From an uncultured Chloroflexia bacterium (GTDB taxonomy: Bacteria; Chloroflexota; Limnocylindria; QHBO01), in contig CAWHAZ010000005.1 in NCBI GenBank assembly GCA_963827475.1, positions 244,259 through 308,258 of the forward strand: a stretch of DNA of 64,000 nucleotides. The letters run 5' to 3'. This document shows, piece by piece, positions 27,301-33,300 of the stretch. The position numbers were made by a program. Numbering within the stretch: position 1 is the first letter of the stretch; every line of letters begins with the position of its first letter.

Positions 27301-30300
27301 GTGATCCGGGTGAATGAGCCCGGTCAGCAGGCGCATGGTCGTCGTCTTGCCCGCTCCGTTGGGCCCGAGAAAACCGTAGACCACGCCCGTCGGGACGGAC
27401 AGGTCAAGTCCGGCCAGCGCGAGGCGCGACCCGTAGCTCTTGCGCAGGTCAATCGTCGCGAGGGCCAGCTCCCCGGAGACGGTCATTGCCGGCGTAGGGT
27501 ACCGGCTCGAACCGCTAGGCTCTCGGCGTGAGCACCGACGGGACCGTCTCCGGCGCCCGGTTTGGCCACGTCAGCATCGTGGCCGCCGACTGGCGCCGCC
27601 TGGCCGACTTCTATGCGGATGTCTTTGGCTGCGAGTTCGTCCCGCCCGAGCGCGACTACGCCGGCGAGGACCTGGAGCGCGGAACCGGGGTCCGCGATGC
27701 CGCCTTGCGCGGGGCGCACCTGAGACTGCCGGGGCACGGGCCCGACGGGCCGACGATCGAGATCTATCAGTACCAGCGCCCCGAGGATCGCCTCCCGCCG
27801 GCGGCCAACCGGCTCGGTCTCGCCCATCTGGCCTTCGCCGTGCCCGACGTCGAGCAGGCGCGGGCCGCCGTCCTGGAGTCCGGTGGCAGCTCGGTGGGCG
27901 AGATCGTGACCCTGACCACCGCTGACGGCCGGCGGGTCACCTGGTGCTACGTCACCGATCCGGAGCGCAACATCGTCGAGCTCCAGTCCTGGAGCCGCTG
28001 AGCAGGGCTTTCGTTCTCCGGGAGTACATCGGTCCCGGCGCAGTACTGCATCAGACCCCACTCCGACCGATTTGGCGTTTTTTGCCCCGGTGCTGACTCG
28101 CACCGGGGCGTACCCCGGTGACGATCACGCCATGGCGACCGCGCTGTCGCCTGCCGATGCTTCCTGCGGATTCATCTTCATCCATTGATCAGGAGGTCAG
28201 GCAGGTGCATGGGATGACCCGACCGCGTATCGGGAACGCCCGGCGGTCGATGCGAGGCTCGCTCGCATCCATCGTCATCGCCGCGTGCCTTCTCGTGACC
28301 GTTGCGCCGACACTCGCGTCGCACGTGGTCGCCGGTGACAGTTCCGGGAAATCCCACGTGCGCCTCGGTGGGGACATACGACCACGAGTTCAAGGTTGAG
28401 CCCGTCACCGACGGACTGCACCAGGACCCGGGGAGCGACTTCTCGGTCACGATCGCCACCCAGTCGACTCCGCTCGGAACCACGGCTGACGTGGTCGCGA
28501 ACCTTCCAATCGACGCCGTCCTGGTCAAGGGCGGGCCCAACGCGAACCTGTACGTCTATGTCCCGTCCGTGCTCACCGATGACGGACTCCACGCCCCGCT
28601 CAACGATGGAACGTATTACGGCCTGGGTCACATCCGATTCTGCTTCTCGGACGAGCCGAGCTCGTCATCGACTCCGACCCCATCCCCCAGCCCGAGCCCG
28701 ACGCCAAGCCCGACGCCGAGCCCGCACGCCCAGCCCGAGCCCCAGCCCGACGCCAAGCCCCACGCCCAGCCCGAGCCCGAGCCCGACGCCGAGCCCCAGC
28801 CCGACGCCGAGCCCCAGCCCGACGCCGAGCCCCAGCGCCGGTCTCCACCCCAGCCCCGACTCCGACTCCCCCCGCGGCGGCGCCGACTCCTCCGGCGCCG
28901 CCGCCTCCTACTCCCCCTGCCTCGGCCACGGCTCCATCTCCGTCGACCAGCGAACAGCCGAATGAGATGACGAGCCAGGCCCCGACTCCGACTCCGCCCG
29001 CCACGACTGCCGGGCTTCAGCCTCCATTTCCGCCGGTGCCCCCTGCCCCGCCGACGGACGGAGGCTCGGCGCCCCCGCCGGACGCCCTGCTGCCGGTGGA
29101 CGTGGTGGGCGGAGTCTTCGCTGCTGCTGCCCAGCAGGTGGCGACGATGGTCCAACCGGAGGCGGCCATCGTCGTGGCCAGCGCGTTCAGCTTCCCTCTC
29201 GCGCTGATGGTTGCCGTGATCTGCTTCCTCGTCGGCCAGGGTCGCGTCGATGCCCGGGATCCGAAGCTTCGGTCCGCGCCGCGGACACGACAGGAGACGG
29301 TGCTGTCCTTCCGTGACGAGGAGGACCTGTGAGCGCCCGTCCGGACGCGACCGATTTTTCCGCGCTCAGCGAGCGGATGAGCAACCTGCTCCTCCTGCGC
29401 GTCGCGCTGGCCGCGATCGTCCTGGTCTGGGCCGCGATGCGCCCCGAGGCCCTCGGGGTCACGTTCCCCGTCCTGGCTGGCGTGACGACGGGCTACCTGG
29501 TCGCGTCGGTCATCTTCGAGATCGTGCGCCGTCGAACAGCACGCGCCGGCTTCACGATTCTCAACAGCCTGCTGCTCCTGGATGGCGTCTATCTCGCCTT
29601 CGCGATGTATGCGACCGGCGGGACGCAGAGCCCGATGCGTTTCCTGATCTACCTGCACCTGGTCGCGGTCTCGCTGCTGGCCTCGTACCGCACCGGGCTG
29701 AAGATCGCGCTCTGGCACTCGCTGCTGCTGTTTGTCGTCCTGTACGCCCAGGCGGCCATGCTCCTCCCGCCTGTCGACACCGTCCCGGGAGCCGCGATCG
29801 CGTTCGACAGCCTTCCGGTGCTCAACGTCACGGCGTTCTGGCTGTTCGCCATCGCCACCTCCGCCTTCTCGGCCATGAACGAGCGGGAGCTGCGGAACCG
29901 GCGGGCGGACCTCGAGGCCCTGGTGGCCCTCGGGACCGAGCTCGACGCCGTCGGCGATCCGGTCCACCAGGCTCGGACGGTGCTCGACGGGCTGGCGGAC
30001 CGCTTCGAGACGCAGCGGGCCGTCGTCCTCGGTGCGTCAGATGACCGCATCGTCGTGCTGGCGGGTCGTGGTGTCGCCGAGGTCCAGAGCGCGCCGGCGG
30101 CGGTCGACGCGGTCATCCAGAAGGCCTGGGATCGCCGGGACGTGTTGCCCGTTCGCCGCATCGACGGGGAGCAGAATCCGCTGATCTCGGCCGCGATTCC
30201 CAACGCCCGCAACCTGCTCGTCGCGCCGATGATCGCGGAGGGGCTGCCGGTCGGCGCCATCGTCGTCGAGCATCGCTCCCGCAGCGTGTTCGGAGTCGAG

Positions 30301-33300
30301 CGGCGCGTCCTCTCGGTGCTGAGCCAGTTCGCGTCCGTGGCCGCGTTGAACTTCCGCAATGCCGTCCTCCTCCGCCACGTTCAGGACCTCGCCGAGCGCG
30401 ACTCCCTGACCGGGGCTGCCAACCGGCGCATGTTCCAGGACGCCCTCACCCGAACCCTGTCCGCGGCTCGCAAGGGCTCGTCGCGGATCACCGCCGTCCT
30501 CTTCCTCGACCTGGACGACTTCAAGGTCGTGAACGACTCGCTGGGCCACGCCGCGGGCGACGCCCTCTTGGTTGCGGTCACCGAGCGCATCAGTGGGCTC
30601 GTCCGCGAGGGCGACCTGATCGCTCGCCTCGGCGGCGACGAGTTCGCGATCCTGACGTCGGACTCCAGCGATCTCCGCCGCTCGCGCGCGATGGCCGATC
30701 GCCTTGTCCGTGAGCTTCGGGCGCCGTACATCATTCGCGACCAGCAGGTGGCGGTGACCGCCAGCATCGGCATCGCCAGCGTGCGGGGAGCGGAGCAGAG
30801 CCCCGAGGAGGTCATCCGCAACGCCGACGTGGCGATGTACATGGCCAAGGCCAACGGCAAGGCGCGTTTCGCGATCTTCGACCCGGGCATGCACGCCGCC
30901 ATCCGCGAACGTCACGAGCTTGGGGCCCAGCTCCAGCGTGCCGTGGAGCTCGACCAGCTGCGACTCGTCTACCAGCCGATCGTCGAGCTGGGCTCCGCAC
31001 GACTGGCCGGCCTGGAGGCGCTCGTCCGCTGGCAGCACCCCGAACGGGGCCTCATCACGCCTGGCGAGTTCATCGAGATCGCCGAGGAAAACGGGGCCAT
31101 CCTGCCCATCGGTCAGTGGGTCCTGCGCGAGGCCTGCCAGCGCGCGGGCAATTGGCAGCGCGAGGGCCTCACTCCGAAGGGCATCTTCCTGTGCGTCAAC
31201 GTCTCAGCCCGGGAGGTCCAGCAGCCGGACTTCGTGACCTCGGTCCGGGCTACCCTCGAGCAGGCCGGCGTGGAGCCGTCGACCCTGATGCTCGAGATCA
31301 CCGAGACCGCGCTGCTCAAGGCCAGCGGGCCGACGATGGACACCCTCTCCGAGCTGCGCTCGCTCGGGGTGCGGGTCGTCATCGACGACTTCGGGACCGG
31401 CTACTTCTCCCTGAGCCACCTCCGCCAGTTCCCGGTGGACGCGCTGAAAGTCGCCACCGAGTTCGTCCAGGGCTCGAGCAGCGACGCCCGCTCGGCGGCT
31501 CTGGCCGGGGCCATCGTGGCGCTGAGCCAGTCCCTGGACATCGCCACCGTGGCGGAGGGCATCGAGACCAGCGAGCAGGCGAAGCTCATGGAGTCTCTCG
31601 GCTGCCGGTTCGGCCAGGGCTTCTTCTTCGCCCGGCCCATGGAGCAGGCCGAGATCGACAAGGGCGTCGCGGGATTCGCATCTCCCGTGCGCCTGCAGCG
31701 CCGTCGCCGCACCGATGCCGCCCCCACGGCTCCTCCCGCCGAATCCGCACAGGCCTCGGACTCGAACACGGACCCCACGACACATGCCCCCGGACCCGAC
31801 CGCGGCTTGACCCCCCGCGGTCGGGTCATTCCTCCGGTGTCAGCCGGTGGCCTCCTCCACCCGGCCGGTACCGCGCCAACGACCTCGACCTCGCATCCGC
31901 TCCGGAAGGCGACCAGGTCGTTGGCGCCCGGCGATCGGCACGGGCCGGCCCGAGGACGTCCGTAGAATCGGTCCACCGTGACCGATTCCCCCTCCGCCGA
32001 CGTCGTCGTCTCCGAACGGCTGTTCCTGCCCCTGCTCACGGCCGGCCGCCTGGAACGGATGCTGAACGGGGACATCGCATCGGTCGGGGTCGAAGTCGGT
32101 GTCAGGCTCCCCGGCTGGTGGATGGAGGAGCGGGACTGGCTGCTCCGCACCCGGCTTCGCCAGATCCAGGGCGACCCTGCCAGCGAGCCCTGGCTCCTGC
32201 GACCGATCGCAATGCGGACCGCTGAGCCGGAGGCGATCGGACTCATCAACTTCCACGGTCCTCCCGACGACCGCGGCTTCGTCGAGGTCGGCTACGAGCT
32301 CCGTCCCGAGTTCCGGGGGCAGGGGTACGCGATCGAGGCGGTCCGCGCTCTCTTCGACTGGGCAGCGCGCGAGCGCGGCATCCGGCGCTTCCGGGCGGGG
32401 ATCGCCCCGGGGAACGAGCGCTCGATCAACCTCGTCACCAAGCTCGGCATGGGCCGGGTCGGCGCGCAGTGGGACGAGGATGATGGCCTGGAGCTGCTCT
32501 ACACCGTGGAGCGGTGGGGGATGGCCTAGAGCCAGTCGCTCCCGGAGCCGCGGGCGTCCTCGGCGTGGACCAGGACGCCGGAATCGAGCTCCGACTCGAA
32601 CAGGGCCAGCTCCTCGTCCGGGATCCCGTAGCCATGCTCCTCGGCGGGGAAGGCCCCGCTGCGCACCTCGCCCGCATACGTCCCCAGGGCCGTTCGGATG
32701 TCCTCGGCCAGGTGGGCGTAGCGCTTCACGAAGCGCGGGGCTCGCCCTTCGGTCAGGCCCAGCAGGTCGTGCCAGACCAGGACCTGCCCATCGCAGCCTG
32801 GTCCCGCGCCGATGCCGATGGTCGGGATCCGCAGCGCCTGGCTGATGCGGGTGGCGACGCGGGGCGGGGACGGCCTCGAGCACGATCGCGAAGCAGCCGG
32901 CGTCCTGCAGGGCCAGGGCATCGGCCAGCAGGCCCCGTGCGGCGGCCGCCGTCCGACCCTGGGCCTTGTAGCCGCCGAGCATGGTGGCGGACTGGGGCGT
33001 GAGCCCGATGTGACCCATGACCGGGATGCCCGCCCCGACGATCGCCCGCACCCGAGACAGCGACGCGCCGCCGCCCTCGAGCTTGACCGCGTCGGCGTCG
33101 GACTCCTTGACGAACCGGACCGCGTTGGACACCGCCTCGCCGTCGGAGACCTGGAACGAACCAAACGGCATGTCCGCCACGAGCAGCGCCCGATGGGCGC
33201 CTCTCCGCGCGGCCCGGGTCAGGACGATCATCTCGTCCACGGTGGCCGGGACGGTGGAGTCGTGCCCGAGCACGACCATTGCCGCCGAGTCGCCGACCAG

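What the first reader, a model, noticed from the sequence alone, without database searches (positions are those of the whole stretch)
28214..31965. Signal-peptide / Pro-Thr-Ser-Glu-rich linker / C-terminal-anchor surface protein translationally coupled (GTGA) to a membrane GAF-GGDEF-EAL protein
The upstream gene encodes a classic secreted surface protein: a signal peptide, a ~100-aa globular domain, ~170 aa of PT/PS and (PEPQPDA)n repeats (18-nt tandem DNA repeats at ~28780-28850), then a hydrophobic helix plus a basic tail reminiscent of sorting-signal/anchor architecture. Its stop overlaps the GTG start of an 878-aa multi-TM sensor with intact GGDEF and EAL motifs. Co-translation of an envelope adhesin or spacer-like protein with a bifunctional c-di-GMP enzyme suggests a self-contained module. 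In such a module, local c-di-GMP turnover would be tied to display of this surface protein, for example for adhesion or biofilm control. The surface-protein gene is readable only with a +1 shift at a GGGG run and a -1 shift at a CCCC run that restore the original frame. These compensating shifts are most likely errors in homopolymers, but slippage-prone tracts in a surface-protein gene would also fit phase-variable expression.
Basis: partly seen in the sequence, partly recalled or inferred. Interest (0 to 1): 0.5.

Follow-up and report, generated by a model that had tools for sequence, protein, structure and literature searches.

The report
Membrane antenna protein paired with c-di-GMP enzyme
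A secreted, membrane-anchored protein and a membrane-bound enzyme that makes and breaks the signal molecule c-di-GMP form a two-gene unit that recurs in about 100 uncultured soil and freshwater bacteria, while the apparent frame breaks in the first gene are most likely assembly errors.

Summary
The core observation holds. Gene 1 (28214-29332) encodes a signal peptide, a ~110-aa beta-sandwich ectodomain, a Pro/Thr/Ser linker, and a C-terminal TM helix with a cytoplasmic tail. Its TGA overlaps the GTG of a 6TM-GAF-GGDEF-EAL gene with intact catalytic motifs.

Several details are wrong.
- Gene 1 carries three 1-nt insertions (~28331, ~28724, ~28837), not two compensating shifts.
- The "(PEPQPDA)n" repeat is an out-of-frame reading of (SPTPSP)n.
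- A fourth shift inflates the enzyme ORF from ~826 to 878 aa.
- At least seven housekeeping genes in the window are also frameshifted, so assembly error is far more likely than phase variation.

A relative (L086) carries the same gene 1 as one intact 430-aa ORF.

The pairing is strongly conserved. Of 101 evaluable loci with the ~75-aa C-terminal module, 94 have the 6TM-GAF-GGDEF(-EAL) gene within 150 nt, and 84 of those 94 overlap stop and start. None of 49 paralogous loci has the module. The pair occurs in Limnocylindria (Chloroflexota) and in at least one Actinomycetota MAG. Only the TM/tail module is conserved; the ectodomain is swapped among at least 10 unrelated types.

Best reading (inferred): gene 1 is an exchangeable extracellular antenna docking on the enzyme's PilS-like 6TM domain. 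It is an uncharacterised variant of accessory-sensor/c-di-GMP systems.

The parts
28043..28128 (+). Conserved leader upstream of gene 1. Block 1 is GTACTGCATCAGACC (28043-28057). Block 2 is GGCGTACCCCGGTGACGATCAC (28107-28128) and contains the palindrome GTGA-N3-TCAC. A variable stem-loop lies between them. This is a candidate operator or promoter region.
   Evidence: The leader is 81-85% identical over ~95 nt in L005, L086, L089, L091 and L002 (77% over 182 nt in L085), although L005 and L089 carry a different ectodomain. L009 shares only a 31-nt stretch over block 2 (90% identity) plus block 1. There is no credible Rfam match (only RF02886, 17.6 bits against a gathering score of 72) and no covariation.
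28214..28318 (+). Signal peptide of gene 1 (35 aa): MTRPRIGNARRSMRGSLASIVIAACLLVTVAPTLA|SHVV.
   Evidence: Frame mod3=2 with high GC3. Homologs keep the 'P(A/T)LA(S/T)(D/H)V' cleavage region. Judged by inspection; no signal-peptide predictor was available.
28329..28334 (+). Frame break #1: a 1-nt insertion in GTC[G]CCGG.
   Evidence: The junction 'SHVV|PVTVPGNPTC' matches P0001 and the intact L086 ORF.
28332..28658 (+). Ectodomain (109 aa, frame mod3=0): an all-beta sandwich from an uncharacterised family, with the motifs GNPTC...YDHEFKVEPV...VKGG..NLYVY...GLHAP...GL.H..FCF.
28659..29101 (+). Pro/Thr/Ser(/Ala)-rich linker of about 145 aa. It contains frame break #2 (28723/4, CCC[G]CACG or CCCG[C]ACG) and frame break #3 (~28837, CAGC[G]CCGG).
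   Evidence: TRF finds period 18, 9 copies, at 28674-28836. The motif phase jumps from 0 to 1 between 28719 and 28726. Frame mod3=2 is homologous to L086, L006 and L007 from 'PVSTPAP' onward.
29102..29332 (+). Conserved C-terminal module (76 aa plus stop): a juxtamembrane helix, a TM helix (F.FPL.L..AV..FL..Q) and a cytoplasmic tail (D.RDPKLR.AP...T...F..E..L).
   Evidence: An HMM of the module hits immediately upstream of the partner gene in 30 of 33 orthologous genome loci and in 0 of 49 paralogous loci. A profile search finds 879 representative clusters (E<=1e-3); in all but two of the 150 listed the module lies at the extreme C-terminus. There is no match to known sorting-signal HMMs.
29329..29332 (+). 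GTGA: the stop codon of gene 1 overlaps the start codon of gene 2.
   Evidence: Among 94 paired loci the overlaps are GTGA 52, ATGA 22, TTGA 2, TGATG 6, GTAA 1 and ATAG 1.
29344..29883 (+). Six-helix transmembrane domain of gene 2 (aa ~6-185), PilS-like.
   Evidence: AF2 predicts helices 6-37, 46-69, 74-95, 103-117, 120-142 and 163-206. Pfam 6TM_PilS scores E 4.4e-5, 23.7 bits, below the cut-off of 27. The same family is precomputed on many homologs.
29959..30375 (+). GAF domain (aa ~211-349).
   Evidence: Pfam GAF, GAF_2 and GAF_3 hits are weak and below cut-off. Foldseek of the AF2 model against PDB matches many GAF domains with probability 1.0 and TM ~0.7.
30394..30864 (+). GGDEF domain (aa 356-512), with GGDEF at 435-439 and the I-site R426-x-x-D429.
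   Evidence: Pfam PF00990, E 1.3e-43. Motifs located. Aligned to 5m3c and 4rnh.
30928..31638 (+). EAL domain (aa 534-770), with E563 (EAL), N624, E656/E659 (EITE), D686-D687, K707, E743 (EGIE) and Q763.
   Evidence: Pfam PF00563, E 6.3e-70. Motifs located. PDB alignments.
31639..31810 (+). True C-terminal tail of gene 2, with frame break #4 somewhere in ~31720-31765. The conserved end '...RTRTRTPRHMPPDPTAA' and its stop at 31808-31810 lie in frame mod3=2. The ORF as assembled instead runs on to 31965.
   Evidence: Comparison with the tails of L005, L006, L007 and L086. The coding-potential signal stops at ~31677.

Best explanation
This is a conserved two-gene operon from a Limnocylindria (Chloroflexota) genome whose assembly is rich in 1-nt insertions.

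Shown:
- Gene 1 is a single type-I membrane protein of ~371 aa. It has a cleavable signal peptide, a ~110-aa beta-sandwich ectodomain, a ~145-aa Pro/Thr/Ser spacer, and a conserved ~75-aa module. That module comprises a juxtamembrane helix, a TM helix and a ~30-aa cytoplasmic tail.
- Gene 2 (~826 aa) is a 6TM(PilS-like)-GAF-GGDEF-EAL protein with every catalytic motif intact. Its GTG start overlaps the stop of gene 1.
- The pairing and the stop/start overlap are conserved in about 100 loci.
- Only the C-terminal module of gene 1 is conserved. The ectodomain is replaced by at least 10 unrelated types, even between close relatives.

Inferred mechanism:
- Overlapping stop and start allow coupled, near-equimolar synthesis of the two proteins.
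- The TM/tail module of gene 1 docks on the 6TM domain of gene 2, and perhaps also on the GAF-proximal cytoplasmic face.
- The Pro/Thr/Ser spacer holds the exchangeable ectodomain out through the cell envelope, where it meets a ligand or a surface.
- Occupancy or mechanical load on this antenna is passed through the membrane helices to the GAF-GGDEF-EAL output. That shifts the balance between c-di-GMP synthesis and breakdown.

Gene 1 is therefore most likely an input (co-sensor) subunit, not the regulated output. The frame breaks are assembly artefacts, not biology.
For: One gene, not three:
- L086 carries the same ectodomain, (PT)n linker and tail as one intact 430-aa ORF, followed by an 821-aa partner.
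- Intact single ORFs with the same layout occur in L009-L012, L022-L024, L026, L027, L032 and L034.

Artefactual shifts:
- panB and panC are split relative to L086.
- Asn synthase, Phosphodiest, CorA, Beta_elim_lyase and COX3 have single Pfam profiles split across adjacent frames.
- Together with the four breaks in this locus, that makes at least 11 frame breaks in 64 kb.
- The mapped breaks are all 1-nt insertions outside homopolymer runs.

Pairing:
- From the enzyme side, 30 of 33 orthologous loci have the module, and 2 of the 3 without it are cut by a contig end. None of 49 paralogous loci has it.
- From the module side, 65 of 71 evaluable metagenome loci are paired. Overall 94 of 101 are paired, and most exceptions are artefacts of my criteria.
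- An Actinomycetota MAG (L167) has the module (E 3.8e-16) directly upstream of a 6TM-GAF-GGDEF protein.

Input role:
- The TM/tail has 21 invariant positions, whereas ectodomains fall into at least 10 unrelated clusters.
- The closest relative, L005 (enzyme 85% identical, same flanks and same leader), has a VWA plus DUF11-like ectodomain instead.
- Distant homologs of the window's ectodomain use other anchors (LPATG, PEP-CTERM, or a tail of their own). The two whose neighbourhoods were examined (P0005, P0011) are not next to a GGDEF gene.

Sensor architecture: six TM helices plus a GAF fold. PilS uses its six TM segments to bind PilA directly (PMC6058289, citing Kilmury & Burrows 2016).
Against: - No physical interaction, topology or enzyme activity has been tested. 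The docking and signalling steps are inferred only from conserved adjacency and from the pattern of conservation.
- The 6TM_PilS Pfam hit is below the curated cut-off (23.7 against 27 bits).
- The ectodomain has no recognisable ligand-binding relative.
- Conserved operon pairing fits equally well with gene 1 being a target or a scaffold.
- Without reads, real frameshift mutations (a pseudogene) in this particular genome cannot be strictly excluded.
Confidence: 0.55

Rival explanations
1. Inventory sensing, as in PilS-PilA. The 6TM domain binds the TM helix of gene 1 protein in the membrane in order to measure how much of this surface protein is present or unexported. It then sets c-di-GMP accordingly, as a form of autoregulation. 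In this reading no external ligand is sensed through the ectodomain.
For: - The domain resembles PilS 6TM.
- PilS binds PilA directly through its TM segments (PMC6058289).
- Only the TM/tail is conserved.
- A conserved leader with an operator-like palindrome lies upstream of gene 1.
Against: - Stop/start overlap predicts a fixed stoichiometry, which leaves little to measure.
- There is no transcription-factor output in the operon.
- Maintaining long spacers and folded, frequently replaced ectodomains argues that the outside part matters.
Confidence: 0.2
2. Output model, as proposed by the first reader. The GGDEF-EAL enzyme creates a local c-di-GMP pool that controls display, retention or function of the co-encoded surface protein (an adhesin), for example through its conserved cytoplasmic tail.
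For: - Tight coupling and conserved pairing.
- The cytoplasmic tail is conserved (D.RDPKLR.AP) and could be an effector site.
- Ectodomains of VWA, DUF11-like and possibly Ig-like type look like adhesins.
- Local c-di-GMP control of adhesin retention is established for LapD/LapG/LapA (general knowledge).
Against: - No known c-di-GMP-binding motif or domain is present in the ~30-aa tail, and there is no Pfam or NCBIfam hit.
- There is no protease or secretion partner in the operon.
- The enzyme carries its own large sensory region (6TM plus GAF) and would need another input.
- Unrelated ectodomains share a single regulator.
Confidence: 0.15
3. The frame breaks are real. Gene 1 is either a decaying pseudogene or a phase-variable contingency gene that is switched by slippage.
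For: As assembled, gene 1 needs three frame changes. The public annotation calls only the 121-aa ORF at 28967-29332 (P0016).
Against: - Identical 1-nt insertions disrupt at least seven housekeeping genes in the same 64 kb.
- The sites are not in homopolymers or short repeats of the kind that slip.
- The three insertions sum to +3 and restore the frame, and each frame segment keeps strong coding bias and homology.
- Related long-read MAG loci show the same out-of-frame PT artefacts.
Confidence: 0.05
4. The two genes are merely neighbours with no functional link.
For: No experiment links them. The ectodomain family also occurs elsewhere without a GGDEF neighbour.
Against: 94 of 101 loci are paired and 0 of 49 paralogous loci have the module. 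Stop and start overlap in 84 of the 94 paired loci. The pair persists across two phyla despite turnover of the ectodomain and of the flanking genes.
Confidence: 0.03

Closest known systems
PilS-PilA (Pseudomonas aeruginosa type IV pilin autoregulation)
   Same: A six-helix membrane sensor domain reads a co-regulated single-pass protein through its TM segment. Pfam's 6TM_PilS is the only family that matches the N-terminus of gene 2 (PMC6058289).
   Different: - The output here is GAF-GGDEF-EAL, not a histidine kinase.
- The partner is a type-I protein with a C-terminal TM and a long spacer, not a pilin with an N-terminal helix.
- The Pfam hit is below cut-off.
- No interaction has been shown.
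Accessory-sensor/c-di-GMP enzyme pairs such as YfiR-YfiN(TpbB) and LapG-LapD (general knowledge)
   Same: A c-di-GMP protein embedded in the membrane is encoded together with an envelope protein that modulates it or is controlled by it.
   Different: - There is no homology of the accessory protein.
- YfiN and LapD use periplasmic PAS/CACHE-like plus HAMP inputs, whereas this enzyme uses 6TM plus GAF.
- LapD is catalytically degenerate, while here all motifs are intact. The NCBIfam LapD score is 129 against a cut-off of 1020.
- The partner here is membrane-anchored with interchangeable ectodomains.
RsgI-type anti-sigma factors of Clostridium thermocellum (general knowledge)
   Same: A conserved TM/cytoplasmic signalling part is joined, through a Pro/Thr-rich spacer, to interchangeable extracellular sensing modules.
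   Different: The topology is opposite, the output differs (a sigma factor rather than c-di-GMP), and there is no sequence relationship. This is an analogy only.
MorA / RmcA-type GGDEF-EAL tandems (PDB 4rnh, 5m3c) and Streptomyces RmdB (6TM-GGDEF-EAL) and CdgE (GAF-GGDEF)
   Same: The catalytic tandem is clearly homologous: 3.5e-99 to 5m3c and 2.3e-97 to 4rnh. The domain architectures resemble RmdB and CdgE (PMC6205966).
   Different: The N-terminal sensor differs, and the papers read here describe no co-encoded partner protein. Streptomyces loci matched only residues ~347-775, so they are not orthologs.
Sortase (LPXTG) and exosortase (PEP-CTERM) sorted surface proteins
   Same: The layout is signal peptide, domain, low-complexity spacer, then a C-terminal hydrophobic helix with basic residues. 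True homologs of the ectodomain do carry LPATG (P0014) or PEP-CTERM (P0015).
   Different: The window protein has no sorting motif and no HMM hit. Its tail is ~30 aa, conserved and acidic at the end, so it is a permanent anchor with a cytoplasmic function.

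Membership tests
GGDEF diguanylate cyclase domain (PF00990) | Profile match above the curated cut-off | tested here: met
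   149 bits against a cut-off of 23.8, aa 356-512.
GGDEF diguanylate cyclase domain (PF00990) | GG(D/E)EF active-site motif, upstream metal-binding Asp, and RxxD I-site | tested here: met
   GGDEF at 435-439, DLDDFK at 394-399, and R426-E-G-D429 five residues before GGDEF.
GGDEF diguanylate cyclase domain (PF00990) | Synthesis of c-di-GMP from GTP | not testable with these tools
   Requires an enzyme assay.
EAL phosphodiesterase domain (PF00563) | Profile match above the curated cut-off | tested here: met
   235.6 bits against a cut-off of 31.3, aa 534-770.
EAL phosphodiesterase domain (PF00563) | Catalytic and metal-binding residues: EAL Glu, Asn, E.xE, DD, Lys, EGxE and Q | tested here: met
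   E563, N624, E656/E659, D686/D687, K707, E743 and Q763 are all present and align to 5m3c and 4rnh.
GAF domain | Sequence profile match above the cut-off | tested here: not met
   GAF 19.5 bits against 22.4; GAF_3 18.3 against 27; GAF_2 16.6 against 28.6.
GAF domain | GAF fold | tested here: met
   The AF2 model (mean pLDDT 79.6 for the whole 350-aa model; ~90 in most of the GAF part) matches many solved GAF domains, with Foldseek probability 1.0 and TMt ~0.7.
PilS-like 6TM sensor domain (PF25323) | Profile match above the curated cut-off | tested here: not met
   23.7 bits against 27, E 4.4e-5, covering profile positions 5-178 of 189. The family is recorded on many homologs.
PilS-like 6TM sensor domain (PF25323) | Six transmembrane helices at the N-terminus | tested here: met
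   AF2 predicts six long helices within aa 6-185. Hydropathy gives five clear segments plus one weaker one.
PilS-like 6TM sensor domain (PF25323) | Direct intramembrane binding of a partner protein's TM segment | not testable with these tools
   Only conserved adjacency with a conserved TM module is shown.
Sortase / exosortase C-terminal sorting signals (LPXTG, PEP-CTERM, GlyGly-CTERM and others) | A signature motif directly before the hydrophobic helix, recognised by the NCBIfam/TIGRFAM sorting-domain HMMs | tested here: not met
   No family at E<=0.1 for the window protein, and none at E<=1 for L086 and L009. The same search finds PEP-CTERM in P0015 (22.6 bits, above the cut-off of 16) and a borderline LPXTG in P0014.
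Sortase / exosortase C-terminal sorting signals (LPXTG, PEP-CTERM, GlyGly-CTERM and others) | A short basic tail of a few residues after the helix | tested here: not met
   The tail is ~30 aa, conserved (D.RDPKLR.AP...F..E..L) and ends acidic.
LapD-type c-di-GMP receptor | Degenerate GGDEF/EAL domains that bind but do not turn over c-di-GMP, and an equivalog-level match | tested here: not met
   The motifs are intact. NF045673 scores 129 bits against a cut-off of 1020.
Phase-variable contingency locus | Frame changes located in a slippage-prone homopolymer or short tandem repeat, and specific to the surface gene | tested here: not met
   The shifts lie in GTC[G]CCGG, CCC[G]CACG and CAGC[G]CCGG contexts. 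The same type of insertion breaks panB and panC, and five other housekeeping genes are also frameshifted.
Sec-dependent type-I signal peptide | A positively charged n-region, a hydrophobic h-region and an AxA-type cleavage site | tested here: inconclusive
   The features are seen by inspection and by hydropathy (aa 17-35, score 2.34) and are conserved in homologs. No dedicated predictor was available.

The most novel reading that the evidence does not exclude
This would be a previously undescribed plug-in antenna system for c-di-GMP signalling in bacteria from two phyla. A ~75-aa TM/cytoplasmic docking module lets unrelated extracellular domains be swapped in front of a Pro/Thr spacer. The domain types include a beta-sandwich, an Ig-like domain, VWA and low-complexity acidic segments. 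Each of them would feed, by helix-helix contact with a PilS-like 6TM domain, into the same GAF-GGDEF(-EAL) enzyme. The repetitive PT-coding DNA may act as the recombination joint for these swaps.
Probability: 0.4. Interest if true: 0.65.

Novelty: new variant of a known kind. Interest (0 to 1): 0.5.

Why it matters
What most membrane-bound c-di-GMP enzymes sense is unknown. Here comparative genomics alone points to a dedicated partner protein.

The conserved part of that partner (TM helix plus ~30-aa tail) defines a small interface that can be tested. Its variable part gives a natural series of input-domain swaps. If the docking model is right, it extends intramembrane partner sensing, known for the PilS kinase, to second-messenger enzymes. 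It would also give a handle on signalling in Limnocylindria, an abundant but uncultured soil and freshwater lineage.

There is a practical lesson too. Pro/Thr-repeat genes in long-read MAGs are systematically mis-framed. This creates false repeat families (PEPQPDA, DAHADP) and truncated gene calls.

Tried and rejected
- Rfam at gathering threshold over the whole window, and at E-value threshold over 27980-28230, looking for a c-di-GMP riboswitch or other leader RNA. The only hits were a tRNA elsewhere and a sub-threshold sRNA match.
- RNAalifold on the conserved leader: no covariation.
- Promoter and terminator consensus scan of 27900-32100: nothing.
- Pfam and NCBIfam on gene 1 and on its counterparts in other loci: no family, except VWA plus DUF11-like in L005.
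- Looking up the source contig through P0016: not on record.
- My first Ctail HMM was contaminated by a frameshift-fused ORF (L016) and was discarded and rebuilt.
- The reading in which ATG 28967 starts a separate 121-aa gene, with ATGA coupling to the frame mod3=0 stop at 28970, was considered and rejected. Frame mod3=2 is homologous to L086, L006 and L007 well upstream of that ATG, and the Met is not conserved.
- A lipoprotein reading of 'IAAC' in the signal peptide was rejected because the Cys is absent from homologs.
- Literature searches for Limnocylindria plus c-di-GMP, and for accessory single-pass partners of diguanylate cyclases, found no description of this pair.

Full report
**What is in the sequence**

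The window is 69% G+C. Between 28214 and 29332 three reading frames each carry part of a plausible protein.
- Frame mod3=2 holds a signal peptide.
- Frame mod3=0 holds a globular domain followed by Pro/Thr/Ser-rich sequence.
- Frame mod3=2 then holds a Pro-rich stretch, a hydrophobic helix and a charged tail ending at TGA 29330-29332. This stop overlaps GTG 29329 of a long ORF.

Position-specific GC content follows the same frame changes. TRF finds an 18-nt repeat with 9 copies at 28674-28836.

**Where the frame breaks really are**

Homologs of the globular domain exist (15 proteins, best hit 59% identity, from a Candidatus Limnocylindria MAG). All of them read '...ALA(S/T)(D/H)V.P......GN.TC...YDHEFKVEPV'.

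In the window only the junction 'SHVV|PVTVPGNPTCASVG' restores the invariant Asn and Cys. This puts the first break at ~28331 (GTC[G]CCGG), not at the GGGG run near 28370.

Within the repeat, the hexamer motifs AGCCC, ACGCC and CCGA are all in codon phase 0 up to 28719 and all in phase 1 from 28726 to 28828. A second 1-nt insertion therefore lies at 28723/4.

A third insertion at ~28837 (CAGC[G]CCGG) brings the frame back to mod3=2, where 'PVSTPAP...' aligns with relatives.

**Proof that it is one gene**

Locus L086 comes from a 181-kb JGI metagenome contig, and its enzyme is 81.5% identical to the window's. It encodes the same signal peptide, ectodomain type, (PT)n linker and tail as one uninterrupted 430-aa ORF. 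Its stop adjoins an 821-aa GGDEF-EAL gene, followed by GNAT, panB and panC exactly as in the window.

Many other orthologous loci have intact single ORFs with the same layout.

**The breaks are not special to this gene**

Relative to L086, panB and panC in the window each carry a 1-nt insertion, at 32859 and 33590.

In five further genes a single Pfam profile is split at consecutive profile positions across adjacent frames:
- asparagine synthase, ~6765
- Phosphodiest, ~41399
- CorA, ~46780
- beta-eliminating lyase, ~49739
- COX3, ~60333

The tail of the GGDEF-EAL ORF is also shifted. Its conserved end '...RTRTRTPRHMPPDPTAA*' lies in another frame and stops at 31810, so the protein is ~826 aa, not 878.

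That makes at least 11 frame breaks in 64 kb. All the mapped breaks are 1-nt insertions in C[G]C-type contexts, and none lies in a homopolymer run. Related long-read MAG loci show the same out-of-frame PT artefacts, such as 'DAHADPDAHADP' and 'RRRRPRR'. Assembly error is therefore by far the most likely cause, and phase variation is not supported. Only reads can settle this formally.

**The downstream protein**

- Pfam gives strong GGDEF (1.3e-43) and EAL (6.3e-70) matches. The GAF and 6TM_PilS matches are weak and below cut-off.
- An AF2 model of residues 1-350 (45-sequence alignment, pLDDT 79.6) shows six TM helices, a long connecting helix and an alpha/beta domain. Foldseek matches that domain to many solved GAF domains at probability 1.0.
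- The catalytic tandem aligns with P. aeruginosa 5m3c and MorA 4rnh at about 1e-97 to 1e-99.
- The GGDEF motif, the RxxD I-site and all EAL metal and catalytic residues are present.
- Equivalog-level NCBIfam models, including LapD, are far below their cut-offs.

**Is the pairing conserved?**

From the enzyme side:
- A scan of species-representative genomes returned 31 full-length orthologs, essentially all in Limnocylindria or 'uncultured Chloroflexia' MAGs, plus 49 paralogous loci.
- An HMM of the last ~75 residues of gene 1 hits immediately upstream of the enzyme in 30 of 33 orthologous loci. Two of the three misses are cut by a contig end. It hits in none of the 49 paralogous loci.

From the module side:
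- A metagenome scan with the tail alignment returned 80 loci.
- Pooling both sets, 94 of 101 evaluable loci have the 6TM-GAF-GGDEF(-EAL) gene starting within 150 nt.
- Most of the seven exceptions are artefacts of my criteria: a frameshift fusion, a second tandem copy of gene 1 in between, or an alignment that starts later.
- Stop and start overlap in 84 of the 94 paired loci (GTGA 52, ATGA 22, TTGA 2, TGATG 6, others 2).

A more distant clade pairs the module with a 6TM-GAF-GGDEF protein that lacks EAL. It includes an Actinomycetota MAG (L167), where the module scores E 3.8e-16.

A profile search of 1.84 billion representative proteins finds 879 clusters carrying the module. In all but two of the 150 listed, the module sits at the extreme C-terminus.

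**What is conserved and what is not**

The tail alignment has 21 invariant positions: V.PEA...VA..F.FPL.L...V..F.....R.D..DPKLR..P. By contrast, the parts N-terminal to the linker fall into at least 10 unrelated clusters.
- The commonest is a possibly Ig-like domain (judged by eye; no Pfam hit) with the motifs 'VDIDPD...RWYF' (27 of 65 loci).
- The window's type occurs only in the window, in L086 and L091, and in the MAG that yielded P0001.
- The closest relative, L005, has an enzyme 85% identical, the same ABC and glyoxalase flank, and the same leader. It carries a VWA plus DUF11-like ectodomain instead.

Conversely, distant homologs of the window's ectodomain carry other anchors: LPATG, PEP-CTERM, or a tail of their own. 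The two whose neighbourhoods I examined (P0005, P0011) sit beside giant CLIPPER/SpaA surface proteins, not GGDEF genes.

The ectodomain is a confident all-beta sandwich (pLDDT 86.4) with no informative structural neighbour.

**Interpretation**

Shown: this is a single-pass type-I protein whose TM/tail module is the cognate, co-translated partner of a 6TM-GAF-GGDEF(-EAL) enzyme across two phyla.

Inferred:
- The module docks on the 6TM domain.
- The Pro/Thr/Ser spacer projects an exchangeable ectodomain through the envelope.
- The state of that ectodomain is relayed to the enzyme.

The closest mechanistic precedent is PilS, whose six TM segments bind PilA directly (PMC6058289). Modular extracellular sensors on Pro/Thr spacers, as in RsgI anti-sigma factors, are a second analogy, which I draw from general knowledge.

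I rank them lower for three reasons. The enzyme would then lack an input for its large sensory region. Translational coupling fixes the stoichiometry. And selection evidently maintains folded ectodomains that are repeatedly replaced.

**Comparison with known systems and novelty**

The catalytic tandem is an ordinary member of the GGDEF-EAL family. Among named actinobacterial proteins, Streptomyces RmdB (6TM-GGDEF-EAL) and CdgE (GAF-GGDEF) are similar in architecture only (PMC6205966). Streptomyces loci matched only the catalytic half.

The C-terminal module of gene 1 has no Pfam or NCBIfam family and is not a known sorting signal. Literature searches found no description of the pair.

I class it as a new variant of a known kind, namely a c-di-GMP enzyme with a co-encoded envelope accessory protein. 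It is of moderate interest: solid comparative evidence, a small testable interface, no experiment yet.

**Side observation**

About 90-170 nt upstream of the start codon of gene 1 lie two sequence blocks. They are invariant among eight loci with different ectodomains. One of them contains the palindrome GTGA-N3-TCAC. There is no RNA-family match and no covariation, so an operator or promoter seems more likely than a riboswitch.

Noticed in passing
window ~6765, ~32859, ~33590, ~41399, ~46780, ~49739, ~60333: Seven housekeeping genes are each split across two frames: asparagine synthase, panB, panC, a type-I phosphodiesterase, corA, a beta-eliminating lyase and cox3. This indicates an error-rich assembly, with at least 11 frame breaks in 64 kb once this locus is counted.
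   Followed up: yes
window 28331, 28723-28724, ~28837, 32859, 33590: Every indel that could be mapped against an intact relative is a 1-nt insertion in a C[G]C-type context (for example GTC[G]CCGG, CAGC[G]CCGG, GAC[G]CGG). None lies in a homopolymer run. This looks like a systematic basecalling or polishing error of unknown cause.
   Followed up: partly
window 28043-28057 and 28107-28128: Two invariant leader blocks lie upstream of gene 1: GTACTGCAYCAGACC, and GGCGTACCCCGGTGACGATCAC with the palindrome GTGA-N3-TCAC. They are shared by eight loci with different ectodomains. Block 1 is also found in L010, L012, L098, L099 and L117. There is no credible Rfam match (one sub-threshold sRNA hit only) and no covariation.
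   Followed up: partly
P0002-P0013; L001:6001-6690; L003:6001-6759: Distant homologs of the ectodomain end in a conserved tail of their own, 'PD(T/G)A(M/L)..G.SP.PT.AF.LILLA.LG.LA.ANV...R'. No sorting-signal HMM recognises it. The two examined in context (P0005, P0011) sit next to giant CLIPPER/SpaA surface proteins, so the tail may be an undescribed sorting or anchor signal.
   Followed up: partly
L099:381-3640 and L097:360-3051: Two tandem genes of the gene 1 type precede the GGDEF-EAL gene, so the antenna gene can be duplicated. The first carries the C-terminal module; the tail of the second was not examined.
   Followed up: partly
L167:3388-5647 (Actinomycetota MAG GCA_009380005.1) and L135-L166: A distant clade pairs the same C-terminal module with a 6TM-GAF-GGDEF protein of ~530-550 aa that lacks the EAL domain. 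The upstream proteins there have acidic or Gly-rich low-complexity ectodomains.
   Followed up: partly
window 43217-46039 (+): This stretch shows about a dozen frame switches in the coding-frame segmentation. It includes a 427-aa ORF (44204-45487) that was not scanned against any family library. It is probably another heavily mis-framed gene.
   Followed up: no
window 28967-29332: The 121-aa ORF at 28967-29332 (P0016, 100% identical) is on record in NCBI and ENA on a 1,066,850-bp contig. The frame breaks therefore appear to be present in the deposited assembly and to truncate its gene call.
   Followed up: partly
window 24320-24393 (+): A tRNA gene is the only Rfam match in the window at gathering threshold.
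   Followed up: no
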